64,000 nt of DNA from an uncultured Rikenellaceae bacterium (GCA_964429295.1 CAYSBL010000006.1:259-64258), one strand, 5' to 3'; counted from the stretch's first letter, positions 2,768-17,467 are shown. Numbers and translations: made by a program. Notes: generated by a model from the sequence alone, not told the origin.

Positions 2768-3658
2768 ATGACAAAGTCTGCTGCCGGTCATAATGAAACC
2801 TTTGGATTCAAACCGGTTCTTTGCGGTTTCATAAGCGAAGCACTGGAGTTGATTCAACCGGGAAGGCTGCCGGGGCAAAGGGTTGTTCACGATGTGAGGG
2901 TGCTTATGAAGAGGGCACGTGCAGCCATAAAACTGCTAAGGAGCAGCATGGATGAGCAGACCTTCAGGCGGGAATACGCTGCATTCCGCGAAACGGGAAG
3001 GATAATGAGCACATGGCGTGAATCGGCTGTACACCTAAAACTACTGAGAGATTTCAGAAAGAAGCATCCGGCTTTGTTCTCCCGCGTAAGGGATGAACAA
3101 GCAATAAGGCAGATCCTGGTGATCCATGAAGATCCGGCCTCTTCTTCCGGAAATATCAGGGAAGATCTGCTGAAGATAAGGGATATGCTTCACCGATCAT
3201 CCTTCCGGATCCGCTTTTTAAATATGCAGTATCTTGATCAGGACCTTCTTCGGGCTGAACTGGAGAGATCATTCCTGCTTGTTGCGGATTGCTACCTTAC
3301 GGCAAGGCACAATCCAAAGGATGTCAATATCCACGAGTTCAGAAAGAAAACCAAGGATCTGCTTTATCAGCTGTTTTTTTTCAGGCAATCGAATCCCAAG
3401 GCGGTGAGAAATTTCGAGAAGAGACTTGATACCCTTGCACAGGATCTTGGAAAGTACAATGATTATGCAGTATTGCTGAGAACTATAGAATATAAGTACA
3501 CACCCGGATGCCGGAATCAAGCAATGGATGAGTTTGCTGTTATCATCAGGCAGGAACAGGACAGGTATCTTGGCAGGATCTGGCCGGCGGCATACAGGAT
3601 TTTCAGACCGGGACTTACACTGCAGCATATGCGGGGATTTGGGAGGAGTGAGGAGTGA
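2768..3658 (+). CDS. CHAD domain-containing protein (polyphosphate-granule associated family)
   Basis: Two CHAD-type His-helix motifs are present: VHDVRVLMKRARAAIKLLR and IHEFRKKTKDLLYQLFFF. The protein is predicted all-helical, 296 aa. Confidence 0.7.
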   Translation: MTKSAAGHNETFGFKPVLCGFISEALELIQPGRLPGQRVVHDVRVLMKRARAAIKLLRSSMDEQTFRREYAAFRETGRIMSTWRESAVHLKLLRDFRKKHPALFSRVRDEQAIRQILVIHEDPASSSGNIREDLLKIRDMLHRSSFRIRFLNMQYLDQDLLRAELERSFLLVADCYLTARHNPKDVNIHEFRKKTKDLLYQLFFFRQSNPKAVRNFEKRLDTLAQDLGKYNDYAVLLRTIEYKYTPGCRNQAMDEFAVIIRQEQDRYLGRIWPAAYRIFRPGLTLQHMRGFGRSEE

Positions 3659-3722
3659 GGAAATTAGGAAATAAGGAAATTAGGAAATAAGGAAATTAGG
3701 AAATTGGGAAATTGGGAAATGA
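3645..3722 (+). repeat. C-free tandem array: GGAGTGA x2 followed by GGAAAT(T/A)(A/G) octamer x8
   Basis: Read directly: GGAGTGA GGAGTGA GGAAATTA GGAAATAA GGAAATTA GGAAATAA GGAAATTA GGAAATTG GGAAATTG GGAAATGA. The array spans the CHAD stop codon (3656-3658) and ends 8 nt before the ATG at 3730. Confidence 0.95.
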
Positions 3723-3729
3723 ATCCGAT

Positions 3730-5220
3730 ATGATCAGGATAAGATGCATAGGCCCTGAGGGAGCAAGGGAGATGGATTCGGAGGAAGGAATTCCGCTCCA
3801 GTCCATACTGAGAAACAACGGATACAATATTTACTCGCCGTGCGGCGGAAGGGGCCGTTGCGGCAAATGTACCGTATGGGTATCAGGTGTCGGAAAGGTA
3901 TTGTCGTGCAGATATTTCCCTGTCAGCGATATTGAAATCATTCTGCCGGGGGATGATGAAGCCAGGATACTTGTTCGACAGACCGAGTTCCTTGAGGATT
4001 TTCAGTTCAGGCCTGAGCTTTCCTCCTGTCACAGCAAAGCTCCCTATGGTGTAGCTATCGATCTGGGCACGACCACCGTGGCTCTTTACTTTCTGAACCT
4101 GATTGACGGAGCGATTGAAAAAGTATCATCCTTTCTTAATCCGCAGATGATATTCGGAGCGGACATAATAAGCCGGATCACCTGGTGCCAGGAAAATGAG
4201 ACCGGTCTTAAGGAGCTCAGGAATTTGATAACCGGTAGCATAAATTACGAAGTGGAAGCCTTTCTGGCTGAACAGGGCCTGGAAAACAAAAATATTGAAA
4301 AAGTTGTTGTGGCAGGCAATACTACAATGCTTCACCTGCTTCTGGGTGAAGATCCGGTCCCTATTGCCCTTGCTCCGTTCACACCGAAGTTTACCTCGCG
4401 GCAGGTTAGGAAGGGTTCTTTGTCCGGGCTGAAGATCAATCCTGATGGCCAGCTGATTACTCTGCCATGTCTTTCGGCTTATGTTGGTTCAGACATCATA
4501 GCAGGGCTGGCTGTACTGAAGCCCCTTTACCTTAATTATCTGTTTGTGGATATTGGCACAAACGGCGAGATAGCTCTTGTCAAAGGGGATACTGTTTATT
4601 CCTGTTCCGCTGCTGCCGGACCGGCATTCGAGGGAGCTAACCTGTCATGCGGCATGGCGGCTGTGACCGGAGCTATATCAGTTTTTTCCGATGCCGGAGT
4701 ATTTCAGGTGATAGGGAATGCAGAACCGTCAGGTATCTGCGGATCAGGTATCGTCGACATTGTTGCATATCTCGTCAGAAAAGGTATTGTGGACGAGACG
4801 GGTTTTCTGAATGAATCGTTCGTGATTCATCCCGGCAGGAACATAATGGTAACACGGCAGGATATAAGGGAAATCCAGCTTGTTAAATCAGCAATCTGTT
4901 CAGGGATCAGGATTCTCATGAAACGTGCCGGAATGGGATTTGAAGATATCGGTGCTCTTTTCCTTGCCGGCGGTTTTGGAAACTACATAAACATAAATTC
5001 AGCCATTGACATTGGTCTTCTGCCTTCAGAGCTGGAAAACCGGATCTTTGCTGTTGGAAACAGTGCAGGGATAGGTGCGATGCAAAATCTGCGTTCGGAT
5101 GAGCACGAACGGCGAATGGTCAGGATCCTTGAAAATTCAAGGTACGTGGAATTATCAGAAGCCGAAGATTTTCCTGAGGAATTTGCCATTAACATGTATT
5201 TCCCGAAACGATCAGGATGA
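3730..5220 (+). CDS. RACo-like ASKHA (DUF4445) ATPase with N-terminal plant-type 2Fe-2S ferredoxin domain (corrinoid reductive activase family)
   Basis: Shows a CGGRGRCGKC ferredoxin motif, then the ASKHA motifs DLGTTTV, VAGNTTMLHLL, DIGTNGE, AAGPAFEG and GICGSG. The track start at 3712 is a TTG inside the repeat, so the ATG at 3730 (MIRIRC) is preferred. Confidence 0.72.
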   Translation: MIRIRCIGPEGAREMDSEEGIPLQSILRNNGYNIYSPCGGRGRCGKCTVWVSGVGKVLSCRYFPVSDIEIILPGDDEARILVRQTEFLEDFQFRPELSSCHSKAPYGVAIDLGTTTVALYFLNLIDGAIEKVSSFLNPQMIFGADIISRITWCQENETGLKELRNLITGSINYEVEAFLAEQGLENKNIEKVVVAGNTTMLHLLLGEDPVPIALAPFTPKFTSRQVRKGSLSGLKINPDGQLITLPCLSAYVGSDIIAGLAVLKPLYLNYLFVDIGTNGEIALVKGDTVYSCSAAAGPAFEGANLSCGMAAVTGAISVFSDAGVFQVIGNAEPSGICGSGIVDIVAYLVRKGIVDETGFLNESFVIHPGRNIMVTRQDIREIQLVKSAICSGIRILMKRAGMGFEDIGALFLAGGFGNYININSAIDIGLLPSELENRIFAVGNSAGIGAMQNLRSDEHERRMVRILENSRYVELSEAEDFPEEFAINMYFPKRSG

Positions 5221-7808: not shown

Positions 7809-8741
7809 ATGAAGATAATCAGTTCCCTCAGAACGGGTTTCGGCAGAGTATTCAGAGCATGGAATGCCGTTGTAATTACATGGTTTTTATTTTTTCTTCT
7901 TACTGTCCTTCTCGTTTTTCCGCTGAGGTCTGCTTTGAACAATACATTGGGCAGCAGTATGATAACCGAAAGACTGGCGGAAGGGCTGGATATTGAGGTC
8001 TTTGCTGATCTGGGAGATGCTGGAAAAAGTCTTCTGTCATTTTTTGCGAGCGGATTCTTTTATACGTTCGTTGTTGCTTTTCTGTTGAATGCTTTCATTT
8101 CGGCAGGCCTGTTCGGCATCATGAGGAAAGATTCGGCCGGATTTTCCTCAGGGGATTTCTTCAGAGCTGCCGGCCGCAATTTTCTGTCATTTCTGCTGAT
8201 ATTATTTATCCTGACGATCGTTTTTGGATTAAGCGTGATATTGCTTGTGATAGTTCCATTGGGAGCCAGCGGAATCGGGGATGGAGGATCTCCCGGTGCC
8301 ATACAGCTTGCTGCCGTCATATTGCTGATCCTTCTTTCGCCTGTTTTTCTTCTTGTTGCTGATTACTCAAGGGCCAGGAAGGCAAGCCGCGAAGATGTTT
8401 CGGCTTTTGAAGCCATTGGATACGGACTCAGCCGTACCTTTGGCAATTTCGGCAGGTCGTATCTTCTGATGGTTCTGCTGGTTCTGGCTCAGATAGTTCT
8501 TCTGGCAGCCATGTTTCTGATAATGCCGGTCTGGAGGCCGTCAACCGGCGCAGGTGTTTTGCTTATGCTGGTCGTATCCCAGCTGCTTGTATTTCTGAGA
8601 TTGTTCCTGAAAGCCTGGAGGTATGCAGGAGTTACATCAATGATGGAAAACCTTGAGCCAGCAAGGCCTGAAGCGCCTCAGTCCAAAACCACCGGGTCAG
8701 CCGCCGGCGGTTTCAGTCAGAATATGGAGAAGCTCACATAG
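7809..8741 (+). CDS. polytopic membrane protein, unknown function
   Basis: Multiple long hydrophobic segments, 310 aa. It starts 12 nt after the M1 peptidase gene. Confidence 0.5.
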   Translation: MKIISSLRTGFGRVFRAWNAVVITWFLFFLLTVLLVFPLRSALNNTLGSSMITERLAEGLDIEVFADLGDAGKSLLSFFASGFFYTFVVAFLLNAFISAGLFGIMRKDSAGFSSGDFFRAAGRNFLSFLLILFILTIVFGLSVILLVIVPLGASGIGDGGSPGAIQLAAVILLILLSPVFLLVADYSRARKASREDVSAFEAIGYGLSRTFGNFGRSYLLMVLLVLAQIVLLAAMFLIMPVWRPSTGAGVLLMLVVSQLLVFLRLFLKAWRYAGVTSMMENLEPARPEAPQSKTTGSAAGGFSQNMEKLT

Positions 8742-9818
8742 GAAATCGCGGTTGTCAGCCTGGAGGTAATGCATTTCTCCGCCCATTCTGCTGAATGTTT
8801 TGCAATAACGCAGATAATAGGCAGGATTATCGGGAGGAGGCTCCCCCTGCTTGCTCCAGTCCCATTCATTTTTTGCAAGATCGACCACTACAATCAGATG
8901 GCCGTCAATGTGTTTTCCATTCCTGATTTCTATATTCTGAGCCATCGACAATGATTTTTCAAAGATCATTGGTGACATCACGGCAGATCCAACCGAAAGA
9001 TAAACTCCGCCATTGATATTCCCAACGCTGTTGGCATAGCACAGGAAATCCCTGACGGCAGTCCGTCCGACTGCCGAACCGTTATTGACAGGATGGGTGT
9101 ATATGATATCATGACCGATCATTGGGTGTCCTGTAAACGGAACTCCGAGTTCATAGGCTGCAGCTTGAACAGAATAATTTTTGAATGGGTGAGGTATGCC
9201 CATGAAGCCGGGCTTGATCCTGCGTTTTTTTATAACCTCAAAAAGGTCGGCAGCAGATGCTGCATATCCGGGATCCTCTTTTATATTTTTGACTGTCTGG
9301 TCGGCAAGAAACTGCAGATCGGGAATATCCAGACCTTCTCTTGATATCATTCTCCCAACCGATTCACCGTATCCCAGGTTTTCAAATGCACCGACGGCCA
9401 GAGCCAGGTTTATGAAAAGTCCGGTTTCCTGCCAGATACCAAACTGTCCCCTCTCAACATTTTCCCTTACGTTTTCTCCGGATTCCCCGCGGAAAGCAAA
9501 CTCCCAGTCATGAATGATGCCTGCACCGTTAGTGGCAAGGTGAGTTACCCAGCCATGGCGGATAAGCTCTGTCAGGACAGGGCCCAGTCCGTTTTTGATG
9601 GTATGGGCGCCAAAAGCAAGGATGACAGATTTTTCCCTTTTTCGGGCCTGTAAAATTCTCGATGCGGTTTCATTTATTATCTCGCGCGTATCATCCGAAA
9701 GGCCATCCGGTCTGTAAGCAGCGGGAACCTGCTTGTCACGGAAAATGATCTGGTTTTTCCTATCATCCAGGCTTCGGATCAGGAGGCGGTCACGGTCAAA
9801 TCTTCTGCCTGCCATCAT
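8697..9818 (-). CDS. uncharacterised protein with deoxyhypusine-synthase-like motif pattern
   Basis: GAHTIKNGLGPVLTELIRHGWVTHLATNGAGIIHDWEFA resembles the DHS-fold pattern (G-A-x-x-x-x-G ... TxGA/NGA-x-x-x-HD-x-E). The match is from memory only. The start overlaps the upstream gene's stop by 4 nt. Confidence 0.4.
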   Translation of the reverse strand: MMAGRRFDRDRLLIRSLDDRKNQIIFRDKQVPAAYRPDGLSDDTREIINETASRILQARKREKSVILAFGAHTIKNGLGPVLTELIRHGWVTHLATNGAGIIHDWEFAFRGESGENVRENVERGQFGIWQETGLFINLALAVGAFENLGYGESVGRMISREGLDIPDLQFLADQTVKNIKEDPGYAASAADLFEVIKKRRIKPGFMGIPHPFKNYSVQAAAYELGVPFTGHPMIGHDIIYTHPVNNGSAVGRTAVRDFLCYANSVGNINGGVYLSVGSAVMSPMIFEKSLSMAQNIEIRNGKHIDGHLIVVVDLAKNEWDWSKQGEPPPDNPAYYLRYCKTFSRMGGEMHYLQADNRDFLCELLHILTETAGG

Positions 9819-11719
9819 CTGATATTTAAGAGGTCAAGTAAAATTTTTGCCTGTGAGAAATCGGGAATTATGATATCGGCGCCAGCCTTTATCAACCTGG
9901 TTCTTTTTGAATGATTGAGGCCGAATCGCCTCAGCTCGTCGCTTGCAACACCCACCGTAAGGCCATTGCGTTTGTGGGTTTCCCTGATCTCTACCGGTCC
10001 GTCGCCAAACGTTACTATCGATGCTGCATCATCCTTTCCTATCGTATCAAGTATTGAATCGAGCACCATTTTCTTTGCTTCGGCATTTATGCTTCCGGTC
10101 GCTCCGTAAATCCTTCCTTCAAAAAGATGGGAGTAACCAAGTACGGCGGCTTCATGTTTTACATCATCGGTATCGGTCCCGCTTGTAAGCCATAGCCTGA
10201 TTCCTTTTTCATGCAGGATTTTCAGAAAAGGGATTGCATTTTTAACGGTAAGATCTTCAACTGTTATCTCTCCCCGTTTCAGTTTTCCTTCCCGCCTTTT
10301 TACCATTCTGAGAAGGTCTTCGTTATAAATCCCTTTATAACCATGAGGATCAAGAATATCGTTTTCTGCTACAAATCCGGAATCTCTTACAAGTCCGGCA
10401 AGATAAACCATTTGCCTGAGAGTCTGGATGCCAGTGGTTTTATCAATAAGCTCATCGACGACCGATTTTACTTTTCTTAAGATATTTTCATCAGCATTCT
10501 CGTATCTGTTTCCGAGTATTGCCCTTATCATCATGGGAGCCATTATCTGTTCCCAACCTTCCCGAAGAGTAGAAATTGTGCCGTCGTTGTCGAAAATGGC
10601 ATGTTTGATCTCCGGAGGCTTTTTCCATGAGGTTATTATTTCAATTTCAGAATCCGCTTTGTAATTTGCCTGCCGCATATCTTCAGCAAGATCAGGATGA
10701 TAAACAAAATCGGCATCGGTTGCAAGGCTTATCACTTCCTGAGGACTGGCGGTCCCGGTCTGAAAAAGTTTCCGGACTGTGACCCCTGCTGTGAAAGTGC
10801 CAAGCCGGGCTGCGGCACCAGGTGTACAGCCGGCGGCAAGTGCAGCAGCAGCCCCGGCAAGATAACTGTCGCCGGCCCCCACAGTGTCAGTGGGGGAAGT
10901 GATCATCACAGATTCTATTTCAATTATTCCCTTATTGTCGGTCACTATTGAACCACGGCTGCCCCTGGTTATGAAAAGAGGTTTTCCGTATCTCTCATAC
11001 AGCCTTTCGGCAGCATGAATGACCTCTGCATGGGACACTGATTCATCAGCAGCCCTGGCTACCCTGCAAAGCCTTGCAGCTTCCCTGTCATTCATCTTCC
11101 TGTACGCTCCTGTGTACTCGTCGGTGAATTGCCTGCTGTCGGTAATGAATATTTTCTCCGGAAACTGACTGATTACTTCCGTTATTTTCTCCCTGAAATA
11201 CGGAGTATGAATTCCCGAAGCGACCTGCTGGTTAATGATCGCCAGGTCGGTTTCGTGAAGTTCGACCCTCAGGTTTGCAATGATTCTGTCGGCAGTTTCA
11301 TCCGAAAGGATGTTGAAATTGCCGAAATCGATTCTGCTCTGTTCGTCATCACCGATATGAGGTTTAATGTAGACATGTGTAGACCAGTCGGTTTCCTGAA
11401 TTAGTAAATTCCGCGAATCAATGCCGTTGTTGTTCAGCAGGGAAATCATCTCTGCTCCGAATGGATCGTTTCCGATCACACCGAAAGCCCTTACATCCTT
11501 AACTCCAAGGGAGGTCAGGTTGCAGGCAACATTTCCGGCGCCACCAAGCGAGTACTTCTGACGTCTTACAGGGGTTGTGGATTTTCCTGTTTCTACAGAG
11601 ATCTCGCTTTTTGATTCATCGATGAACCAATAAGCATCGAGGCAGAAGTCTCCGATGACCGCTATTCGCGATTTGCGAATTTTTTCCAGTATTTCTTTGA
11701 GGAATTCCGGATTCATCAT
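9815..11719 (-). CDS. fusion protein: PfkB/ribokinase-family sugar(-phosphate) kinase (HldE kinase-domain-like) + C-terminal HAD phosphatase
   Basis: The N-terminal half has GDFCLDAYW...GGAGNVA and a DTVGAGDS anion-hole motif. The C-terminal half has the HAD motif I FDNDGTIS and a distal GDGPVE/ASDE motif. Total 634 aa. Confidence 0.72.
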   Translation of the reverse strand: MMNPEFLKEILEKIRKSRIAVIGDFCLDAYWFIDESKSEISVETGKSTTPVRRQKYSLGGAGNVACNLTSLGVKDVRAFGVIGNDPFGAEMISLLNNNGIDSRNLLIQETDWSTHVYIKPHIGDDEQSRIDFGNFNILSDETADRIIANLRVELHETDLAIINQQVASGIHTPYFREKITEVISQFPEKIFITDSRQFTDEYTGAYRKMNDREAARLCRVARAADESVSHAEVIHAAERLYERYGKPLFITRGSRGSIVTDNKGIIEIESVMITSPTDTVGAGDSYLAGAAAALAAGCTPGAAARLGTFTAGVTVRKLFQTGTASPQEVISLATDADFVYHPDLAEDMRQANYKADSEIEIITSWKKPPEIKHAIFDNDGTISTLREGWEQIMAPMMIRAILGNRYENADENILRKVKSVVDELIDKTTGIQTLRQMVYLAGLVRDSGFVAENDILDPHGYKGIYNEDLLRMVKRREGKLKRGEITVEDLTVKNAIPFLKILHEKGIRLWLTSGTDTDDVKHEAAVLGYSHLFEGRIYGATGSINAEAKKMVLDSILDTIGKDDAASIVTFGDGPVEIRETHKRNGLTVGVASDELRRFGLNHSKRTRLIKAGADIIIPDFSQAKILLDLLNIR

Positions 11720-11731
11720 TCAATGGTATTA

Positions 11732-12373
11732 TCAGCCGTAAAAATAGTTCTCGACAATAAGGCAGACTGTGTGCAGGGCAGGCAGGCATAATTCCTGAAC
11801 CCACGCAGTTCTGGTTTCAGGTACACTGATCAGAATATCGCAATACTGCTTCATTTTTCCACCGGTTTTTCCGGTGAAGCCGATGACATTCATGTTCAGG
11901 GCCCTGGCGGTTATGCACGCATCTATCACATTGACAGAGTTTCCTGAAGTGCTTAGTCCGACAAGAATATCTCCCTCGTTTCCATAGCCTATAACCTGCT
12001 GGGCAAATACAACCGAGGAGCCTGTATCGTTGCATATAGCGGTTGAAAGGGCTGTATTCGAAGGAAGCGGAATTGCCGGAAGTGCATGATTCAGTTTACC
12101 TCCGAGGAATCTGCCCCTTGAAGGTGATATTTCGCAGAGCCTGTCTTTCAGTGACTGATCGAGCGGTCTTTCTTTCTCAAAGCTTTTCATGAGCTCTGCG
12201 GAGAAGTGTTCAGCGTCGGCACTGCTTCCCCCGTTGCCGCATACAAGCAGCTTGCCTCCTCCGCTGTAACACCTGATTATCATTTCAGAGGCTTCAGCTA
12301 TATTGTCTTTCAAACCTGCCAGGGAAGGGTATCTGCGACAAAGTGTGTCAAGATGAATGTCAGTTTTCTTCAT
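11732..12373 (-). CDS. SIS-domain sugar-phosphate isomerase, GmhA/DiaA-like
   Basis: LLVCGNGGSSADAEHFSAEL is the GmhA-type signature, with a later STSGNS motif. The probable start is MKKTDIHLD at 12373, 1 nt after the murQ stop; the track start is 12415. Confidence 0.72.
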   Translation of the reverse strand: MKKTDIHLDTLCRRYPSLAGLKDNIAEASEMIIRCYSGGGKLLVCGNGGSSADAEHFSAELMKSFEKERPLDQSLKDRLCEISPSRGRFLGGKLNHALPAIPLPSNTALSTAICNDTGSSVVFAQQVIGYGNEGDILVGLSTSGNSVNVIDACITARALNMNVIGFTGKTGGKMKQYCDILISVPETRTAWVQELCLPALHTVCLIVENYFYG

Positions 12374-12374
12374 A

Positions 12375-13238
12375 TTATTTCTGACCGGTATTGTTGTTAT
12401 TTTCAATAAAGGCATCTAAGGCTTTCCTGACCGATCCGTGAAGAAGAAGGAGTTTTCTTGATGTCTCAGGATCAAGTCCGAGTTTATCCGAAATCATTTT
12501 GGTACCCCTGCTGATAAGTTTCTGGTTGGTAAGCTGCATATTAACCATAAGGTTCCCTTTTACCCTTCCCAGCCTGATCATGGTCGAGGTGGTTATCATA
12601 TTGAGGACCAGCTTTTGAGCGGTACCAGCCTTCATTCGGGTGCTTCCGGTTACGAATTCTGGTCCGGTAATTACTTCTATTGCAATATCTGCATTTTCCG
12701 CGACAGGAGTTCCCGGATTACAGGTTATGGCACCTGTGAAAATACCGTTCTGCCTTGCTCTTTTCAAGGCTCCTGTTACATAGGGTGTTGTTCCGGATGC
12801 AGCGATTCCGATCACCACATCGGAAGGTGTTGGTTTGAAAGCCAGAATATCCTTCCAGCCCAGTTCTTCATTGTCTTCAGCCATTTCAACTGCTTTTCTG
12901 ATCGCTCCGTCGCCTCCTGCTATCAATCCTACTACATATCCATGGTCGAGACCGAAGGTTGGGGGTATTTCGGATGCATCCACAATACCAAGGCGTCCGC
13001 TGGTTCCTGCACCGATATAAAAAATCCGGCCTCCCTTCTTCATTTTTGACACAATGGTTTCAACCAGCCGGGCGATTTCAGGGATAGATTTTCTGACAAT
13101 AAGTGCTACTTTCTGATCTTCAGTGTTTATGGATTGGAGTAATTCAGTTACCGGCATCTTTTCAAGATCGTGGTACAGGGATTCGGATTCTGTTATACTG
13201 GTCATTTTTTGTTGCTTGTTAAAATCAGTTTTGGACAT
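12375..13238 (-). CDS. murQ: N-acetylmuramic acid 6-phosphate etherase
   Basis: GRIFYIGAGTSGRLGIVDASEIPPTFG and the C-terminal GSTRMKAGTAQK are typical of MurQ. An alternative start lies at 13205. Confidence 0.85.
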   Translation of the reverse strand: MSKTDFNKQQKMTSITESESLYHDLEKMPVTELLQSINTEDQKVALIVRKSIPEIARLVETIVSKMKKGGRIFYIGAGTSGRLGIVDASEIPPTFGLDHGYVVGLIAGGDGAIRKAVEMAEDNEELGWKDILAFKPTPSDVVIGIAASGTTPYVTGALKRARQNGIFTGAITCNPGTPVAENADIAIEVITGPEFVTGSTRMKAGTAQKLVLNMITTSTMIRLGRVKGNLMVNMQLTNQKLISRGTKMISDKLGLDPETSRKLLLLHGSVRKALDAFIENNNNTGQK

Positions 13239-13274
13239 CCGTTTCAGGATGCTTTTTTGATAAGGCCAGGAAAT

Positions 13275-14120
13275 TTATGAATTTTCTTTGTGATACTGTA
13301 TCAGACCTTCGATTGGTCCCTGGCATACGGTTGATATTACAAAACCGTATCTGCTGAAGACCTCCTCCAGTATATCCCTGAAATGCCATGCTACCGAACC
13401 GGTGACAGCTAATCCGCTACCGGGGGGAATACCGTAAAGGTTTAAATTCCGGCGGACGAATTCCCCAAAGGAAATCTCAACCAGGTCCCTGCAGTAGGAT
13501 TCACTGATATGGTCATTCAGAAATTTCACAAAACCACCGATATAGCGGCTCGGGAATACTCCCCTGTATACGTTTGATACAATTTCATCCTTTTCAGCAC
13601 CGTAGATGCTTCTGAACTCATCTGAAAGTTTTTCCGGCATTATTCCCCTGAGGAAGTCTGCTATCAGCCTTTTTCCCAGTGCAGCCCCGCTTCCCTCATC
13701 ACCCAGAATAAATCCGAGAGGAGGTACGTTGGAGGTGATGTTTCTGCCGTCGTAATAACCTGAGTTTGATCCTGTTCCTATCATGCAGATATAACCCGGT
13801 CTGTTTCCGAGCAGACCCCTTGCAGCTCCCGTCAGGTCGGAAAGCACATTTACCCTGATGCCCGGAAGGGCTGAATTGACTGCTTCCGCAACTTTACGAA
13901 GCATGGCTTCTCCGGCACAGCCTGCGCCATAAAACCAGACCTCGTCGACCGGGGGATTGTTCATTGCCGGAAGAACTTCCAGTGTCAATACCTCCCGGAT
14001 TGTATCCTTCGACACGAAATTGGGATTGAGCCCTATGGTTGGAATGATCCCGGTTTCTCCGGTATCCGACATGGCGCACCAGTTTGTCTTGGTCCCGCCA
14101 CTTTCAGCTATTAGTATCAT
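13275..14120 (-). CDS. BadF/BadG/BcrA/BcrD-type ATPase, GlcNAc/MurNAc kinase-like (MurK-like)
   Basis: Has the N-terminal ILIAESGGTKTNW phosphate-1 motif and an internal GTGSNS motif. It lies directly upstream of murQ, as in the Tannerella murK-murQ arrangement. Confidence 0.7.
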   Translation of the reverse strand: MILIAESGGTKTNWCAMSDTGETGIIPTIGLNPNFVSKDTIREVLTLEVLPAMNNPPVDEVWFYGAGCAGEAMLRKVAEAVNSALPGIRVNVLSDLTGAARGLLGNRPGYICMIGTGSNSGYYDGRNITSNVPPLGFILGDEGSGAALGKRLIADFLRGIMPEKLSDEFRSIYGAEKDEIVSNVYRGVFPSRYIGGFVKFLNDHISESYCRDLVEISFGEFVRRNLNLYGIPPGSGLAVTGSVAWHFRDILEEVFSRYGFVISTVCQGPIEGLIQYHKENS

Positions 14121-14250
14121 ATCTCAAAATTACAATAATTATCCATACTTCATTCCTTCCCCTGACAGCTCAGATTGCAATCCTGAAGTACGTATTTATA
14201 CCCACTTCAAAATAGGTTTTAACCCTCTTATATGGCTATGTTCAAAAACG

Positions 14251-14258
14251 TACTTTTG
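14251..14258 (+). promoter_or_regulatory. candidate Bacteroidota -7 promoter box (TAnnTTTG)
   Basis: TACTTTTG lies 46 nt upstream of the ATG at 14304, in the 183-bp divergent intergenic region. No clear -33 TTTG was seen. Confidence 0.35.
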
Positions 14259-14303
14259 TTGTTAATAAAATAACAGAACCCGATTATATTAAACATTTCC
14301 TGA

Positions 14304-15014
14304 ATGGAAAACTACCTGGAACTGCTGAAGCAGGACATAAGGTTTGTGGAAGGGCTTAAGGCTTGCATGAACTGCGGTATCTGCACCGCAATATGTCCGG
14401 CAGCCGAATTCTATGACTATGATCCGCGGAAAATTGTTGACACGGTGCAGAAAGGTGACAACGAGGAGATCGAAAAGCTTCTCAGGTCGGAGACTATCTG
14501 GTACTGCGGAGAATGCATGTCGTGCAAGACAAGATGCCCCAGAGGCAACACTCCTGCTCTAGTGGTGATGTCTCTCAGAACACTCTCCCAGAAGCTGGGT
14601 TTTTTTACCGATTCTGAAAAGGGAAGGCAGCAATTTGCGATCAAGCGTACTGTAGGAGAGAATATTTTCAAATACGGATACTGCGTTGCCACTTATGCAG
14701 TCAGGCCCGATATGCACATGGAGCAGGGCCCCATCTGGCAGTATATACTTGACAATACCTACGATATATATGAGCGTCTGGGAGGCCAGATCAACGAGCT
14801 TGGAGCAGGTCCTTTAAGGAAGATCCCGGAAGACGCCAGGGAAGAGCTTAAGAAGATATTCGAGGTTACCGGCGGGACCGAGTTATATGAAACAATTGAA
14901 GCCCACTCTCGGAAAAAGGCTGCCGAGATGGGACTCCAGTTCGATGAGGAAGGAATCGACAATGAGTATTTCATTGAGACATACACCGCCGCAAACAAAA
15001 AACATACCTTTTGA
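14304..15014 (+). CDS. HdrC-like 2x[4Fe-4S] protein
   Basis: Two CX2CX2CX3CP motifs are present: CMNCGICTAICP and CGECMSCKTRCP. Size is 236 aa. Confidence 0.72.
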   Translation: MENYLELLKQDIRFVEGLKACMNCGICTAICPAAEFYDYDPRKIVDTVQKGDNEEIEKLLRSETIWYCGECMSCKTRCPRGNTPALVVMSLRTLSQKLGFFTDSEKGRQQFAIKRTVGENIFKYGYCVATYAVRPDMHMEQGPIWQYILDNTYDIYERLGGQINELGAGPLRKIPEDAREELKKIFEVTGGTELYETIEAHSRKKAAEMGLQFDEEGIDNEYFIETYTAANKKHTF

Positions 15015-15033
15015 TATCATTCATTCATTCAAT

Positions 15034-16095
15034 ATGCAACAGAAAGAAAGTAAAATGGTCTGGCGTGATTACCAGAAGGAAATTGCAGACGATCATTTTT
15101 TTTATGTAAGGTCATGTATCAGGCAGAGTTTTTTCCCTGGTTCAGAACAGTTTTTCCTGCATCTTTTGCGGGATGTTCTGGGCAAGGATGTGTATGAGAA
15201 TCCGTCACATACTACCTGTACCGGAATAGGCTATCATTCAGATGTAGTTCCGTTTTCGACCATACAGACCGTAATTGCCCGGCATTATGCCCTTATGAAG
15301 GAAGCCGGGTATAAGAATATAGCCATCTCTTGTGTAACTTCCTTCGGTATCTACACCGAGATACTTGAAACCTGGAAGCATTTTCCTGAGGAGCTTGAGA
15401 AGACCAGGGAATACCTTTACAAGGCTACCGGAAGGGAATTTGACGTTCCGGAAAATGTGGTTCATACAAGTGATCTCGTTTACAAGTTCCGCGACGAGAT
15501 AGCTGCCAGGGCAAAGTTTCCCCTTGTTAATAAGTTAACGGGAGAACCTCTTCGCGTGGTTGAGCATATCGGCTGTCATTATGCAAAGATATTCCCGAAA
15601 TATGGTGTGGGAGGGGCGGAATTTCCGCATGTTTTGAGCGGGATGATTGAGTCGTGGGGAGGACAGGTTGTCGATTATCCTGAAAGAAGGCACTGTTGCG
15701 GTTTCGGATTCAGACAATACCTGGTTCAGGCAAACAGGGGCTATTCGCTCTCAAACACTGTAAAGAAGTTTACATCGATGAAGCCATACAAACCCGACCT
15801 GGTTCTTACCAACTGCCCGGGTTGCACAATGTTCATGGATAAGTGGCAGTATACTATAAGGGAAATGGATGGAACCACCTTCGGAGCCGACGGCGAAGCC
15901 ATTCCTGTGCTTACCTACGAGGAGCTAGCAGCACTGGTCATGGGATACAATCCCTGGGATCTGGGACTACAGATACACATGGTTCAGTCGGAGCCCCTTC
16001 TCAGGAAGATGGGTATCGAATATGATCCCCGCGATAAATTTCTTACCAGGGACGGAAGGCAAATGCCAATACCGAAAGATCTTATAAATTCCTGA
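15034..16095 (+). CDS. HdrB-like CCG-domain protein
   Basis: Contains RRHCCGFGFRQY (CCG motif) and LTNCPGCTMF. The track ORF (14887) overlaps the previous gene, so the ATG at 15034 (MQQKESK) is preferred. Confidence 0.68.
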   Translation: MQQKESKMVWRDYQKEIADDHFFYVRSCIRQSFFPGSEQFFLHLLRDVLGKDVYENPSHTTCTGIGYHSDVVPFSTIQTVIARHYALMKEAGYKNIAISCVTSFGIYTEILETWKHFPEELEKTREYLYKATGREFDVPENVVHTSDLVYKFRDEIAARAKFPLVNKLTGEPLRVVEHIGCHYAKIFPKYGVGGAEFPHVLSGMIESWGGQVVDYPERRHCCGFGFRQYLVQANRGYSLSNTVKKFTSMKPYKPDLVLTNCPGCTMFMDKWQYTIREMDGTTFGADGEAIPVLTYEELAALVMGYNPWDLGLQIHMVQSEPLLRKMGIEYDPRDKFLTRDGRQMPIPKDLINS

Positions 16096-16096
16096 G

Positions 16097-17122
16097 ATGA
16101 GCCGGCGTGTTGTTGTCATAGGAGGAGGAACGGCAGGAATGGAAGCCGCAGGCCGGCTTGCCCGGGAAGGTGTTACGGTGACTCTTGTAGAAAAAGGACA
16201 GGACCTCGGAGGGCACCTCAGGAACTGGTATCATTTGTTTCCCGACAGGCGAAGCAGCGATGAGGTACTTGAATATCTCAACGGGCAGGTGTCGCATCAG
16301 AACATCCGTCTTTTGAAAGGCTGCCAGGTAACCGGGTTTCATCGGGATGGAAATGAATTCAGGGTAACCACGGGAAACGGCGAAACAATAAATGCAGATG
16401 CCCTGTTGCTGGCAACAGGTTTTGACCTGTTCAGGAGCGAACGGAAGGAAGAGTATGGCTATGGTATTTATGACAATGTTATTACCTCAGCCGATCTGGA
16501 AACAATGTTCAGGAAGAACGAGATTAAACTTGCAAATGGCCTTATCCCTGAAAGGATTGGATTTGTGCATTGTGTGGGTTCGAGGGATGAAAAAGTCGGC
16601 AACATCTACTGCTCAAAGCTTTGCTGCGTTACGGCAGTTAAGCAGGCTATTGAGGTCAGGAAGATAATCCCTTCGTGCAAAGCTGTTTGTTTCTATATGG
16701 ATATCAGGATGGGCGGCGCCCTGTATGAAGAACTATACAAGGAGGCCCAGGAAAAATACTCGGTAAGCTTCATCCGCGGAAAAGTGTCGGAAGTGGCTGT
16801 GAATATTTCTAACCGGCTTGTCGCCAAAGTAGAGGATACTCTTGTGGGACGTCCTCTTAAAATGGAGATGGATATGCTTGTTCTCATGGCAGGTATGGAA
16901 ATGGCGGAAGATGCTGTCAAGCTTGCTGATGAGGCAAAGCTGAAGAGGGGCGAGAACAGGTTTTTCCAGCCGGCCGATCATCATTTCGGTACGAACATGG
17001 GTAATGTCAGAGGTGTGTTTTATGCCGGCGCCTGCACAGCACCGCTGAACATAACGGAGACTATTTCCCATGCCCGCAGTGCTGTCATGGAAATAGTAAA
17101 CTATCTGAACTCAGCTAAGTAA
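16097..17122 (+). CDS. short HdrA-like FAD/[4Fe-4S] flavoprotein (341 aa)
   Basis: Has a VVVIGGGTAGMEAA dinucleotide fold and an intact HdrA cluster motif, CVGSRDEKVGNIYCSKLCC. The ATG lies 1 nt after the upstream stop. Confidence 0.8.
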   Translation: MSRRVVVIGGGTAGMEAAGRLAREGVTVTLVEKGQDLGGHLRNWYHLFPDRRSSDEVLEYLNGQVSHQNIRLLKGCQVTGFHRDGNEFRVTTGNGETINADALLLATGFDLFRSERKEEYGYGIYDNVITSADLETMFRKNEIKLANGLIPERIGFVHCVGSRDEKVGNIYCSKLCCVTAVKQAIEVRKIIPSCKAVCFYMDIRMGGALYEELYKEAQEKYSVSFIRGKVSEVAVNISNRLVAKVEDTLVGRPLKMEMDMLVLMAGMEMAEDAVKLADEAKLKRGENRFFQPADHHFGTNMGNVRGVFYAGACTAPLNITETISHARSAVMEIVNYLNSAK

Positions 17123-17467
17123 ATGGAGAAATTCGGATTTACACTTTCTAAAGCACGTGTCATCGATTATGACGCCAACGACCGCAGTATCGTTTCCTAT
17201 ATTATTGAAAGGGAACCAAGTCTTAAACTCTGTATTGAATGCGGAAGTTGCACGGCAACGTGCACAACAGGGAATTTCACCGGTTTCAGTCTGAGGGAGA
17301 TACATATTTTATTGAAAAGGGGTGAAAATGAACTGGTAAGGCAGAAAGTAAAGAAATGCATGCTGTGCGGCAAGTGCATTCTGGTCTGCCCAAGGGGAGT
17401 CAACACCCGCAATGTGGTAAGTCTGGCTAAACAGGCGTTCAGAAAAACAGAAGGCTATGAATTTTGA
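17123..17467 (+). CDS. small 2x[4Fe-4S] ferredoxin-like protein (HdrC2-like)
   Basis: Contains CIECGSCTATC and CMLCGKCILVCP. The ATG directly abuts the upstream stop. Confidence 0.68.
   Translation: MEKFGFTLSKARVIDYDANDRSIVSYIIEREPSLKLCIECGSCTATCTTGNFTGFSLREIHILLKRGENELVRQKVKKCMLCGKCILVCPRGVNTRNVVSLAKQAFRKTEGYEF

What the first reader, a model, noticed from the sequence alone, without database searches (positions are those of the whole stretch)
8697..14120. MurK/MurQ operon extended by a GmhA-like isomerase, a sugar kinase-HAD phosphatase fusion and a DHS-fold protein
Five minus-strand genes are tightly coupled: a 36-nt gap, a 1-nt gap, a 12-nt gap and a 4-nt overlap.
- The first two, a BadF-type kinase and the MurNAc-6-P etherase MurQ, form the known MurNAc catabolic pair.
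- The downstream three are not part of any described MurNAc route.
- These are a GmhA-type SIS isomerase (CGNGGSSADAEHFSAEL), a 634-aa fusion of an HldE-kinase-like PfkB domain (DTVGAGDS) to a capped HAD phosphatase (FDNDGTIS), and a 373-aa protein whose GAHTIKNG...ATNGAGIIHDWE pattern resembles deoxyhypusine-synthase-fold enzymes.
- Isomerase + kinase + phosphatase is the logic of heptose-1-phosphate synthesis (GmhA/HldE/GmhB).
- The kinase is fused to the phosphatase rather than to an adenylyltransferase, and there is no nucleotidyltransferase.
This suggests an undescribed sugar-phosphate conversion linked to peptidoglycan amino-sugar salvage.
Basis: partly seen in the sequence, partly recalled or inferred. 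Interest (0 to 1): 0.58.

Follow-up and report, generated by a model that had tools for sequence, protein, structure and literature searches.

The report
MurNAc operon fused to heptose-like module
The five genes form one operon, but its last three genes are a widespread, uncharacterised sugar-phosphate module related to the bacterial heptose pathway and built around an enzyme family of unknown function, and this module normally sits beside mannose-utilisation or heptose-glycan genes rather than cell-wall recycling genes.

Summary
Five minus-strand genes at 8697-14120 are tightly coupled: a MurK-family kinase, MurQ, a GmhA-like SIS isomerase, an HldA-like PfkB kinase fused to a C1-capped HAD phosphatase, and a 373-aa protein with a real deoxyhypusine-synthase/ornithine-cyclodeaminase fold.

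The 373-aa protein belongs to NCBIfam NF052581, 'GSU2086 family protein', whose function is unknown. The family has about 1,160 clusters at 50% identity.

Across 160 related loci and several gene fusions, this family travels with four partner types:
- GmhA-like isomerases
- HldA-like kinases
- phosphatases
- in some taxa, HldC-like nucleotidyltransferases with GT9 heptosyltransferases

The three genes are therefore a conserved variant of the ADP-heptose pathway logic with a new fifth enzyme. They are neither a canonical LPS cassette nor a MurNAc-specific extension.

MurK and MurQ accompany the module in only 3 of 48 well-flanked loci. In the nearest relatives that carry both, an opposite-strand DUF3788 gene separates the two units.

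The usual Bacteroidota neighbours are a mannose-2-epimerase-like enzyme, an SGLT-like symporter, a ROK kinase and GH38/GH92 alpha-mannosidases.

Best reading: a manno-configured sugar phosphate is converted through a 1,n-bisphosphate, with a dinucleotide-dependent, redox-neutral step. That last step is inferred.

The parts
13275..14120 (-). MurK-family (BadF/ASKHA) sugar kinase, 281 aa, first gene of the operon
   Evidence: ORF. PDB phmmer: PG1100 (1zbs) 234 bits, 8oqw and 8ow9 ('putative novel MurNAc kinase') about 192 bits, 8oqk and 8ow7 (GlcNAc kinase) about 170 bits. No Pfam hit. MurNAc versus GlcNAc specificity was not determined.
12375..13238 (-). MurQ, N-acetylmuramic acid 6-phosphate etherase, 287 aa
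   Evidence: NF003915 369.9 bits (cutoff 168) and TIGR00274 303.2 bits (cutoff 302). PDB 4s12 at 263 bits. 36-nt gap to the kinase gene.
11732..12373 (-). GmhA-like single-SIS aldose-ketose isomerase, 213 aa, starting 1 nt after the murQ stop
   Evidence: TIGR00441 143.6 bits (cutoff 209) and PRK13936 162.5 bits (cutoff 276). Solved GmhAs score 114-138 bits in two blocks. The motifs CGNGGS.ADA.HF..E, ND.G, STSGNS and QE-x6-H are kept. There is a 26-residue insertion (residues 70-96), and Ser replaces the Arg of the GmhA 'GRY/GRF' motif.
10685..11719 (-). HldA/HldE-domain-I-like PfkB kinase domain (residues 1-345 of the 634-aa fusion)
   Evidence: PF00294 115.6 bits. Best NCBIfam hit is rfaE_dom_I at 131.4 bits (cutoff 345). 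Best solved relative is D-beta-D-heptose 7-phosphate kinase 4e84, E = 3.9e-14.
9815..10684 (-). C1-capped HAD phosphatase domain (residues 346-634 of the fusion), DxDGT motif FDNDGTIS
   Evidence: PF00702 36.3 bits. No sequence hit in the PDB. AF2 model pLDDT 88.4. Best Foldseek matches are beta-phosphoglucomutase and phosphoglycolate-phosphatase type C1-capped HADs, E about 1e-7. Conserved cap residues R41, K117 and R131 (domain numbering).
8697..9818 (-). GSU2086-family protein, 373 aa, DHS/ornithine-cyclodeaminase fold, 4-nt overlap with the fusion gene
   Evidence: NF052581 325.7 bits (cutoff 250). AF2 pLDDT 95.7. Foldseek: DHS, AgrE/ArgZ OCD domain and 3c2q, E about 1e-7, TM 0.40-0.47. 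Profile hit to ArgZ/AgrE, E = 2e-6, over the G.H...G / NGAG.IHD.E region. Invariant residues G70, H72, E106, E115, G124, G127, G149, G235, D257 and G277.
14121..14303 (.). 183-nt divergent intergenic region, the only space for the operon's promoter (inferred)
   Evidence: ORF map and sequence. It contains TAATTTTG just upstream of the kinase ATG, which matches the Bacteroidetes -7 consensus TAnnTTTG as I remember it. This was not tested.

Best explanation
The last three genes are one conserved functional module. It is a paralogous variant of the ADP-heptose pathway logic, joined in this lineage to a MurK-MurQ pair.

Proposed steps:
1. The GmhA-like isomerase interconverts a ketose phosphate (fructose-6-P or sedoheptulose-7-P) and the manno-configured aldose phosphate.
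2. The HldA-like PfkB domain phosphorylates the anomeric C1 to give a 1,n-bisphosphate.
3. The fused C1-capped HAD domain removes one phosphate, most simply the distal one. Together the fusion acts as an ATP-driven phosphomutase that yields a sugar-1-phosphate.
4. The GSU2086-family protein is translationally coupled to the fusion and sits in the slot that the epimerase HldD fills in the classical five-step pathway. Using a bound nicotinamide-type dinucleotide, it carries out a redox-neutral conversion of the sugar phosphate, most likely an epimerisation.

What is shown: the family assignments, the folds, the conserved catalytic motifs of the isomerase, and the synteny and fusions.

What is inferred: the substrate (a manno-configured hexose or heptose phosphate), which phosphate the HAD removes, cofactor binding, and the reaction of the GSU2086 protein.

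Co-transcription with murK-murQ is real here but evolutionarily recent. At most it means that MurNAc-derived hexose phosphate is one feed into the module.
For: 1. Each partner's best family match is the corresponding heptose-pathway enzyme, and none reaches the equivalog cutoff.
- GmhA models: 143.6-162.5 bits.
- rfaE_dom_I: 131 bits, with HldA structure 4e84 as the best solved relative.
- The GmhA catalytic and phosphate-loop motifs are kept.

2. Synteny over 80 genome loci from many phyla. Of the 48 with at least 4 kb on both sides:
- kinase next to or near the GSU2086-like gene in 38
- HAD in 37, as a kinase-HAD fusion in 36
- SIS in 21

3. In 80 metagenome loci of the short form, the same four functions are separate genes in the order (SIS)-HAD-GSU2086-PfkB-ROK, and SIS+HAD fusions occur.

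4. Gene fusions join the GSU2086 domain to every partner type:
- rfaE_dom_II-like nucleotidyltransferase (P0262 on 8 contigs, P0267, P0265)
- SIS (P0334)
- PfkB (P0338)
- HAD (P0313)
- PfkB+HAD (P0242)

5. Biosynthetic contexts contain GT9 heptosyltransferases and no SDR-type epimerase within 8 kb:
- L161: SIS-PfkB-NT-GmhB-like-[NT+GSU2086]-GT9
- L163-165: [GT9+NUDIX]-SIS-PfkB-[NT+GSU2086]-PMT_2
- L166: HldE-[SIS+GSU2086]
Geobacter has gmhA-GSU2086-hldE, and all three genes show electrode-growth fitness defects.

6. A phosphatase (HAD, GmhB-like or ARMT1-like) accompanies GSU2086 in most contexts. The family is therefore the fifth function and not the phosphatase.

7. The fold is that of DHS and AgrE-type ornithine cyclodeaminase, which use bound NAD+ transiently. 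The glycine-rich NGAG turn aligns with the TAGG turn of DHS, and the HD.E motif is shared with AgrE/ArgZ.

8. The HAD cap carries conserved basic residues, consistent with a bisphosphate substrate. Its fold is beta-phosphoglucomutase-like.
Against: - No biochemical data exist for any member.
- NAD binding is inferred from fold and motif similarity at 11-16% identity and TM 0.40-0.47. The invariant His, Asp and Glu residues could equally form a metal site.
- Known DHS/OCD-fold enzymes oxidise amines, not sugar hydroxyls.
- In the Bacteroidota form there is no nucleotidyltransferase or glycosyltransferase to consume a sugar-1-phosphate. The neighbours there look catabolic: SGLT-like symporter, mannose-2-epimerase-like enzyme, GH38/GH92, LacI regulators.
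- Some loci have GSU2086 with SIS only, or with an FGGY kinase and a DHDPS-family protein, and no kinase-HAD.
- Several fusions rest on a single contig. The PfkB+HAD+GSU2086 fusion could be a frameshift artefact at a 4-nt overlap.
- Absence of an HldD-type epimerase was checked only within 8 kb.
Confidence: 0.4

Rival explanations
1. Catabolic phosphorylate-convert-dephosphorylate route. In the Bacteroidota form, the kinase-HAD fusion and the GSU2086 protein convert an imported or glycosidase-released manno-type sugar. The sequence would be kinase, then dinucleotide-dependent epimerisation or isomerisation, then phosphatase. The product is then handled by mannose 2-epimerase, a ROK kinase and the GmhA-like isomerase, which would act as a phosphomannose isomerase feeding fructose-6-P. 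In this window the MurK-like kinase and MurQ replace ROK and the epimerase as the feeder.
For: - The common long-form gene order is ROK-SIS-(GH38)-(MFS)-KinHAD-GSU2086-AGE-SSF-(DUF1080)-(GH92), with LacI regulators.
- The AGE neighbour scores 703 bits to PDB 8h1k-n.
- The SSF neighbour is SGLT-like: 215 bits to SGLT1 against 75 bits to the sialic-acid transporter.
- SSF is near the module in 24 of 48 loci and AGE in 22 of 48.
- L061 and L076 have SSF-GSU2086-SSF-FGGY kinase-DHDPS family-GH38.
- Fusing the first and last enzymes of a three-step channel, with the middle enzyme translationally coupled, is plausible.
Against: - The kinase's closest relatives phosphorylate sugar phosphates at C1, not free sugars.
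- Mannose needs none of these steps once a 2-epimerase and a glucokinase are present.
- The same family sits in clearly biosynthetic clusters with nucleotidyltransferases and GT9 or GT-C transferases.
- The window itself has no AGE, SSF, ROK, GH38 or GH92 gene.
Confidence: 0.25
2. One reading: a peptidoglycan amino-sugar salvage extension. GlcNAc-6-P released by MurQ would be processed by the three downstream enzymes, for example GlcNAc-6-P to GlcNAc-1,6-bisphosphate to GlcNAc-1-P for UDP-GlcNAc synthesis.
For: - There is a 1-nt gap between murQ and the SIS gene in the window, and an overlap in L001, so the genes are co-transcribed.
- A kinase-phosphatase pair could act as a phosphoacetylglucosamine mutase.
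- ROK and AGE neighbours elsewhere belong to superfamilies that also include GlcNAc/ManNAc enzymes.
Against: - MurQ and the MurK-like kinase accompany the module in only 3 of 48 loci.
- In L002 and L003 an opposite-strand DUF3788 gene separates them from the module.
- A GmhA-type isomerase cannot isomerise a 2-acetamido sugar (established enzymology of aldose-ketose isomerases).
- The AGE neighbour is nearly identical to a chain I believe is a mannose 2-epimerase.
- The transporter is hexose-type.
Confidence: 0.1
3. The GSU2086-family protein is a non-HAD analogue of GmhB, that is, a heptose-1,7-bisphosphate 7-phosphatase, so the module is simply a complete sugar-1-phosphate pathway with a redundant or differently specific HAD.
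For: - Three arrangements contain an isomerase, a kinase, a nucleotidyltransferase and GSU2086 but no phosphatase gene in the operon: Geobacter gmhA-GSU2086-hldE, L166 HldE-[SIS+GSU2086], and L163-165 SIS-PfkB-[NT+GSU2086].
- The invariant His, Asp and Glu residues could bind a catalytic metal.
Against: - Most loci carry a phosphatase next to or fused with the partners: HAD in 37 of 48 long-form and 10 of 18 short-form loci, a GmhB-like HAD in L161, and an ARMT1-like phosphatase in the same polypeptide in P0265.
- The fold and the retained glycine-rich turn point to dinucleotide binding.
- To my knowledge, gmhB is unlinked and dispensable in E. coli, so its absence from an operon says little.
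Confidence: 0.1
4. An ordinary LPS ADP-heptose cassette (GmhA, HldA, GmhB) plus an unrelated hypothetical gene, lying next to murQ by chance.
For: The best family matches are GmhA and the HldE kinase domain. JGI annotators named homologues 'rfaE bifunctional protein kinase chain'.
Against: - All scores are far below the equivalog cutoffs.
- The phosphatase is a C1-capped beta-PGM-type HAD, not the capless GmhB type.
- No adenylyltransferase, HldD or GT9 gene is in the 64-kb window (Pfam of the flanking genes).
- The 373-aa gene is the most constant member of the set across phyla and is fused to the partners.
- Neighbours in related Bacteroidota are mannosidases and sugar transporters.
Confidence: 0.05

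Closest known systems
ADP-L-glycero-beta-D-manno-heptose pathway (GmhA, HldE or HldA+HldC, GmhB, HldD)
   Same: The order of chemistry is the same: ketose-P isomerase, anomeric PfkB kinase, phosphatase. Some relatives add an HldC-like nucleotidyltransferase and a GT9 transferase. The isomerase keeps the GmhA catalytic motifs.
   Different: - All components score below the equivalog cutoffs.
- The phosphatase is a C1-capped HAD fused to the kinase, not a capless GmhB.
- There is no nucleotidyltransferase here.
- The fifth enzyme has a DHS/OCD fold, not the SDR fold of HldD.
- The Bacteroidota contexts are sugar-utilisation loci.
MurNAc catabolic pair MurK/MurQ of Bacteroidetes (Tannerella forsythia murT-murK-murQ; from my own knowledge)
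   Same: The first two genes match solved MurK-family kinases and MurQ and are adjacent in the same order.
   Different: No MurT-like transporter gene is adjacent. The pair is co-transcribed with three unrelated genes, and only in this narrow lineage.
Deoxyhypusine synthase and AgrE/ArgZ/TIGR00300-type ornithine cyclodeaminase domains
   Same: The overall fold is shared. So are the first Rossmann unit with G.(S/H)..(S/K)(S/N)G, the glycine-rich dinucleotide turn, and the HD.E motif shared with AgrE/ArgZ.
   Different: - 11-16% identity, TM 0.40-0.47.
- Scores are below the Pfam and NCBIfam cutoffs.
- Those enzymes act on polyamine or amino-acid amines, whereas this family is tied to sugar-phosphate enzymes.
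- The long form has an extra insertion of about 50 residues (residues ~160-208).
Beta-phosphoglucomutase / phosphoglycolate-phosphatase type C1-capped HAD enzymes
   Same: DxDGT nucleophile motif, helical C1 cap and Rossmannoid core.
   Different: The cap is about twice the usual size, with about 130 residues between motifs I and II. There is no detectable sequence match to any solved HAD. It is fused to a PfkB kinase.
Mannose-utilisation loci with mannose 2-epimerase (Runella slithyformis enzyme; Saburi 2019 and Wang 2023, cited in PMC13363691)
   Same: In related Bacteroidota the module is co-oriented with an AGE-family gene scoring 703 bits to PDB 8h1k-n, an SGLT-like symporter and GH38/GH92 alpha-mannosidases.
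   Different: The window has lost these neighbours, or never had them. The role of the module in such loci has not been described in any paper I could find.

Membership tests
GSU2086 family (NCBIfam NF052581) | Whole-protein score above the curated cutoff of 250 bits | tested here: met
   325.7 bits, profile positions 2-300 of 301. The family has no assigned function.
Deoxyhypusine synthase (PF01916 / TIGR00321) | Score above the gathering or equivalog cutoff | tested here: not met
   PF01916 21.9 bits (cutoff 27). TIGR00321 16.1 bits (cutoff 304). Only residues ~52-109 match.
Deoxyhypusine synthase / OCD fold (structural superfamily) | Same overall fold in a confident model | tested here: met
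   Model pLDDT 95.7. Foldseek probability 1.00, E about 1e-7, TM 0.40-0.47 to DHS, AgrE and 3c2q.
Deoxyhypusine synthase / OCD fold (structural superfamily) | Bound NAD+ (or related dinucleotide) cofactor | not testable with these tools
   Only motif alignment is available: NGAG against TAGG, and a shared HD.E.
GmhA, D-sedoheptulose-7-phosphate isomerase (TIGR00441) | Equivalog score cutoff of 209.45 bits | tested here: not met
   143.6 bits in two blocks, with a 26-residue insertion.
GmhA, D-sedoheptulose-7-phosphate isomerase (TIGR00441) | Catalytic/zinc His-Glu and Gln...His residues plus the STSG phosphate loop (residue roles from my own knowledge) | tested here: met
   The alignments to 1tk9, 5i01, 2xbl and 2x3y keep HF..E, ND.G, STSGNS and QE-x6-H. 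The Arg of the GRY/GRF motif is Ser here.
HldE domain I / HldA heptose-7-phosphate kinase (TIGR02198) | Equivalog-domain cutoff of 345 bits | tested here: not met
   131.4 bits. It is still the best-scoring family and the best solved relative (4e84).
HldE bifunctional protein | C-terminal adenylyltransferase domain (rfaE_dom_II) | tested here: not met
   The C-terminal half is a HAD domain. tblastn with an rfaE_dom_II-like domain finds nothing in the window.
GmhB heptose-1,7-bisphosphate phosphatase | Small capless (C0) HAD of the histidinol-phosphatase-like subfamily | tested here: not met
   The model shows a large helical C1 cap. Its structural neighbours are beta-PGM and Gph-type HADs. There is no GmhB hit in NCBIfam.
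MurQ, MurNAc-6-P etherase | NCBIfam cutoffs (NF003915 168 bits; TIGR00274 302 bits) | tested here: met
   369.9 and 303.2 bits. 263 bits to solved MurQ 4s12.
MurK, MurNAc kinase of Bacteroidetes | Homology to characterised MurK chains | tested here: met
   About 192 bits to 8oqw and 8ow9 over the full length.
MurK, MurNAc kinase of Bacteroidetes | Preference for MurNAc over GlcNAc | not testable with these tools
   The protein scores similarly to chains named GlcNAc kinase (about 170 bits). The best hit, PG1100, is uncharacterised.

The most novel reading that the evidence does not exclude
The GSU2086 family is a new class of dinucleotide-dependent sugar-phosphate epimerase or isomerase built on the deoxyhypusine-synthase/ornithine-cyclodeaminase fold. 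The cofactor would be NAD+ or, as in its TIGR00300 relatives, a nickel-pincer-type dinucleotide. It would define a nucleotide-independent route to a modified manno-sugar, for example L-glycero-D-manno-heptose made at the phosphate level and replacing HldD. In Bacteroidota, together with an ATP-driven kinase-phosphatase 'mutase', it would be used to salvage or catabolise mannose or heptose from glycans and cell-envelope debris.
Probability: 0.2. Interest if true: 0.8.

Novelty: new variant of a known kind. Interest (0 to 1): 0.6.

Why it matters
- The family is large, with about 1,160 clusters at 50% identity at E <= 1e-10, and it occurs in many phyla. It is linked to heptose-type sugar activation, whose products (heptose bisphosphate, ADP-heptose) are envelope building blocks and innate-immune agonists.
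- If the GSU2086 protein fills the epimerase slot or performs another step, the textbook five-enzyme pathway has a widespread alternative. The DHS/OCD fold would also gain its first carbohydrate substrate.
- In Bacteroidota, the module sits inside alpha-mannoside and mannose loci. This points to an unrecognised cytoplasmic step in mannose or heptose handling.
- The finding supplies concrete, cheap assays: four soluble enzymes and commercially available substrates.
- Two cultured carriers, Mariniphaga anaerophila DSM 26910 and Draconibacterium aestuarii, are available for genetics.

Tried and rejected
- **Sequence search of the 373-aa protein against the PDB:** only marginal hits. A family profile was needed.
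- **The search for related loci with the 34-sequence alignment A1:** failed because no conserved stretch was available. I repeated it with nine closer sequences, which biases the genome set toward the long form. The short form was sampled separately from metagenomes.
- **Literature:**
  - 'GSU2086' appears only in a Geobacter Tn-seq table.
  - Searches on deoxyhypusine-synthase-like proteins with heptose or sugar, on Geobacter heptose genes and on phosphoheptose isomerase with PULs gave nothing relevant.
  - The nickel-pincer OCD paper and the AgrE structure paper are not held.
- **Sialic-acid locus reading of the AGE + SSF + ROK neighbours:** considered and rejected. The AGE gene is nearly identical to 8h1k-n, not to GlcNAc 2-epimerases, and the symporter is SGLT-like, not SiaT-like.
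- **GSU2086 as the missing GmhB:** considered and down-weighted because phosphatases co-occur in most loci.
- **Promoter and terminator scans:** no signal above chance.

Full report
**1. Observation**

The window contains five consecutive minus-strand ORFs:
- 13275-14120 (281 aa)
- 12375-13238 (287 aa)
- 11732-12373 (213 aa, counted from the ATG that matches the length of homologues; the longest ORF begins at 12415)
- 9815-11719 (634 aa)
- 8697-9818 (373 aa)

The spacings are 36 nt, 1 nt, 12 nt and a 4-nt overlap.

The block is bounded on both sides:
- Upstream is a 183-nt divergent intergenic region (14121-14303), facing heterodisulfide-reductase-like genes.
- Downstream is a convergent gene (7809-8741) whose 3' end overlaps the last gene by 45 nt.

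Consensus promoter and terminator scans show nothing above chance inside the block. GC content is uniform. The five genes form a single operon as far as sequence can show.

**2. The first two genes**

MurQ passes both NCBIfam cutoffs: NF003915 at 369.9 bits (cutoff 168) and TIGR00274 at 303.2 bits (cutoff 302). It scores 263 bits to a solved MurNAc-6-P etherase.

The 281-aa kinase has no Pfam hit. It aligns end to end with these chains:
- P. gingivalis PG1100: 234 bits
- a B. thetaiotaomicron homologue: 222 bits
- chains deposited as 'putative novel MurNAc kinase' or 'ATPase': about 192 bits
- chains deposited as 'N-acetylglucosamine kinase': about 170 bits

It therefore belongs to the Bacteroidetes MurK/GlcNAc-kinase family. 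Its sugar preference cannot be read from sequence. No MurT-like transporter gene is adjacent.

**3. The three downstream proteins**

*SIS protein.* GmhA models are its best matches, but it stays below their cutoffs (TIGR00441 143.6 bits against 209). Alignments to four solved GmhAs show the following:
- The motifs CGNGGS.ADA.HF..E, ND.G, STSGNS and QE-x6-H are kept. To my knowledge these include the catalytic and zinc residues and the phosphate loop.
- There is a 26-residue insertion at residues 70-96.
- Ser replaces the Arg of the GRY/GRF motif.

*The 634-aa protein.* It has two domains:
- A PfkB kinase domain. Its best family is HldE domain I (131 bits, cutoff 345) and its best solved relative is the heptose-7-phosphate kinase HldA, 4e84.
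- A HAD domain with a DxDGT motif and no sequence match in the PDB. An AlphaFold model (pLDDT 88.4) shows a large helical C1 cap. Its Foldseek neighbours are beta-phosphoglucomutases and phosphoglycolate-phosphatase-type HADs, not the capless GmhB type.

*The 373-aa protein.*
- It is a member of NCBIfam NF052581, 'GSU2086 family protein' (325.7 bits, cutoff 250). This family is named but has no assigned function.
- Its model is very confident (pLDDT 95.7).
- The best structural matches are deoxyhypusine synthases, the NAD+-binding ornithine-cyclodeaminase domain of AgrE/ArgZ, and the M. maripaludis LOR/SDH protein. These score E about 1e-7, TM 0.40-0.47 and 11-16% identity.
- A profile of 34 family members hits ArgZ and AgrE at E about 2e-6. 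The hit covers the first Rossmann unit, the glycine-rich turn (NGAG against TAGG in DHS) and a shared HD.E motif.

The protein is not a DHS: it scores below all DHS cutoffs.

**4. How widespread the family is, and what it travels with**

An exhaustive search finds 1,864 representative clusters at E <= 1e-3 and 1,164 at E <= 1e-10. There are two forms:
- a long form of about 370 aa, with an insertion of about 50 residues at residues 160-208; the window protein is of this type
- a short form of about 320 aa

*Long-form genome loci.* I fetched 80 genome loci from Bacteroidota, Lentisphaerota/Victivallales, Verrucomicrobiota, Elusimicrobia, Calditrichota, KSB1, Ignavibacteria, Nitrospirota, Hydrogenedentota, Spirochaetia, Chloroflexota, Planctomycetota and Acidobacteriota. 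Of these, 48 have at least 4 kb of sequence on both sides. Within 6 kb of the GSU2086-like gene those 48 loci show:

| Neighbour | Loci (of 48) |
|---|---|
| HldA-like kinase | 38 |
| HAD | 37 (36 as the same kinase-HAD fusion) |
| SGLT-like SSF symporter | 24 |
| AGE-family gene | 22 |
| GmhA-like SIS gene | 21 |
| GH38 | 12 |
| GH92 | 10 |
| MurQ and the MurK-like kinase | 3 |

*Short-form metagenome loci.* Eighty loci show the same functions as separate genes, typically (SIS)-HAD-GSU2086-PfkB-ROK-(SIS). SIS+HAD fusions occur.

*Fusion proteins.* The GSU2086 domain is joined to every partner type:
- an rfaE_dom_II-like nucleotidyltransferase at 152-169 bits against a cutoff of 181.5 (P0262 seen on 8 contigs, P0267, and P0265, which also carries an ARMT1-like phosphatase)
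- SIS (P0334)
- PfkB (P0338)
- HAD (P0313)
- PfkB+HAD (P0242)

Several of these rest on one contig only. The triple fusion could be a frameshift at the usual 4-nt overlap.

**5. Two kinds of neighbourhood**

*(a) Biosynthetic neighbourhoods.*
- L161: GT2s-SIS-PfkB-NT-GmhB-like HAD-[NT+GSU2086]-GT9 heptosyltransferase-methyltransferase-flippase.
- L163-165: [GT9+NUDIX]-SIS-PfkB-[NT+GSU2086]-PMT_2.
- L166: HldE-[SIS+GSU2086]-methyltransferases.
- L162: HldE-[ARMT1+NT+GSU2086].
- Geobacter sulfurreducens: hldE (GSU2085)-GSU2086-gmhA (GSU2087). [quoted passage not shown]
- None of these loci contains an SDR-type (HldD-like) epimerase within 8 kb.

*(b) Sugar-utilisation neighbourhoods, typical of the long form in Bacteroidota.*
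- The common order is ROK-SIS-(GH38)-(MFS)-[kinase-HAD]-GSU2086-AGE-SSF-(DUF1080/3-keto-disaccharide-hydrolase-like)-(GH92), often with LacI regulators and further secreted glycosidases. Mariniphaga anaerophila DSM 26910 (L030) is an example.
- The AGE gene scores 703 bits to PDB 8h1k-n. Those chains are deposited as 'N-acylglucosamine 2-epimerase'. To my knowledge they are the Runella slithyformis D-mannose 2-epimerase of Saburi 2019 and Wang 2023, papers cited in PMC13363691.
- The symporter resembles SGLT1 (215 bits) far more than the sialic-acid transporter (75 bits).
- Other long-form contexts are SSF-GSU2086-SSF-FGGY kinase-DHDPS family-GH38 (L061, L076) and GSU2086 next to a TMEM260/PMT_2-like GT-C transferase (L049, L051). 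A GSU2086+PMT_2 fusion, P0325, also exists.

The common theme is manno-configured sugars: mannose in one kind of neighbourhood, D-glycero-D-manno-heptose in the other.

**6. The MurK/MurQ link**

Only L001 (85% identical GSU2086 homologue, Bacteroidales UBA6117), L002 and L003 carry the MurK-like kinase and MurQ upstream of the module.

In L002 and L003 a DUF3788 gene on the opposite strand lies between murQ and the SIS gene. The module there is followed by convergent SSF and AGE genes. The same DUF3788 gene precedes the SIS gene in L008, L015 and L021, which have no murK or murQ.

The window and L001 have lost DUF3788, SSF and AGE. That loss brought murQ and the SIS gene to within 1 nt of each other. 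The five-gene operon is therefore a recent, lineage-specific fusion of two units. Co-expression is real here, but it gives only weak evidence that the module's chemistry concerns MurNAc.

**7. Mechanism: what is shown and what is inferred**

*Shown:*
- The family and fold assignments.
- Retention of GmhA catalytic motifs.
- The kinase's nearest relatives are anomeric kinases of heptose-7-P.
- The HAD is a C1-capped type with conserved basic cap residues (R41, K117, R131 in domain numbering).
- The constant association and fusion of these functions with the GSU2086 domain.

*Inferred:*
- The isomerase makes a manno-aldose phosphate from fructose-6-P or sedoheptulose-7-P.
- The kinase makes the 1,n-bisphosphate.
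- The HAD removes the distal phosphate, which makes the fusion an ATP-driven mutase.
- The GSU2086 protein supplies the fifth function.

A phosphatase accompanies GSU2086 in most contexts. Its fold is that of enzymes that use a bound dinucleotide for transient oxidation. The biosynthetic loci lack an HldD-type epimerase. For these three reasons the most economical assignment is a redox-neutral epimerisation or isomerisation of the sugar phosphate.

I put this whole model at about 0.4. Within it:
- That the three genes form one conserved heptose-pathway-like module is about 0.85.
- That GSU2086 is a dinucleotide-dependent epimerase is about 0.3-0.35.

The rivals are:
- a catabolic phosphorylate-convert-dephosphorylate route for a mannose-type sugar (0.25)
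- GSU2086 as a GmhB analogue (0.1)
- a plain LPS cassette (0.05)

**8. A side lead on the cofactor**

NCBIfam now names the TIGR00300 relatives 'ornithine cyclodeaminase, nickel-pincer nucleotide-dependent'. A 2026 paper cites Desguin 2025 for a nickel-pincer adenine dinucleotide cofactor in such cyclodeaminases (PMC13524815). The HD.E motif shared with that clade leaves open that GSU2086 proteins use something other than plain NAD+. I saw no recurrent LarB, LarC or LarE-like gene family among the clustered neighbours, but I did not search for them specifically.

**9. Comparison and novelty**

The closest known system is the ADP-heptose pathway. The module works like its first three steps but fails membership tests for GmhA, HldE and GmhB. 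It also adds a protein family with no known function.

I found no publication describing the family's role. I rate the finding as a new variant of a known kind.

Interest is 0.6, for these reasons:
- The family is large and phylogenetically broad.
- A DHS/OCD fold tied to carbohydrate phosphate metabolism would be unprecedented.
- The hypothesis is directly testable.

Against that, the function is not resolved here, and the specific peptidoglycan-salvage angle that motivated the finding is weak.

Noticed in passing
window 14304-19361 (+): Divergently transcribed cluster: a ferredoxin-like 4Fe-4S protein, a CCG-domain protein, an FAD/NAD pyridine-nucleotide-disulphide oxidoreductase, a small 4Fe-4S protein, and a 634-aa membrane protein with 4Fe-4S and two CCG domains. 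This is heterodisulfide-reductase-like. The same three upstream genes flank the operon in L001-L003.
   Followed up: partly
window 2768-5220 (+): A CHAD-domain protein is followed by a RACo-type protein (reductive activator of corrinoid enzymes; ASKHA C-terminal domain plus RACo middle region). This suggests corrinoid-dependent methyl-transfer metabolism in this Bacteroidales organism.
   Followed up: no
window 8697-8741: The 3' end of the GSU2086-family gene overlaps by 45 nt the 3' end of a convergent 310-aa multi-pass membrane protein gene (7809-8741). That protein has no Pfam family. No terminator-like element lies between them.
   Followed up: no
L163 5048-6421, also L164 and L165: A GT9 heptosyltransferase is fused to a NUDIX hydrolase domain, directly upstream of SIS-PfkB-[NT+GSU2086]. 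This is an unusual pairing of a nucleotide-sugar user with a nucleotide-diphosphate hydrolase.
   Followed up: no
P0244 / L168 5116-7536: An 806-aa protein joins a XylR/AraC-type sugar-sensing regulator (Peripla_BP_3 + HTH_18) to a full long-form GSU2086 domain. It is seen on one contig only, so it could be a gene-call or assembly fusion. If real, the domain may also serve as a ligand sensor.
   Followed up: partly
L032, L041, L042, L048 (e.g. L042 3144-4388 and 4395-5666): Two tandem paralogues of a secreted protein of about 410 aa, with no Pfam or NCBIfam match, take the place of ROK-SIS upstream of the kinase-HAD gene in GH92-containing loci. This is possibly an undescribed glycosidase family.
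   Followed up: no
window 8697-9818, residues ~160-208 of the protein: The long-form GSU2086 proteins carry an insertion of about 50 residues, predicted as helices plus a strand, that is absent from the short form and from the 301-position NCBIfam profile. Its role is unknown.
   Followed up: no
window 14124-14131 (minus strand): TAATTTTG lies 3 nt upstream of the kinase ATG. It matches the Bacteroidetes -7 promoter consensus TAnnTTTG as I remember it, which would imply a leaderless or nearly leaderless first gene. This was not tested.
   Followed up: no
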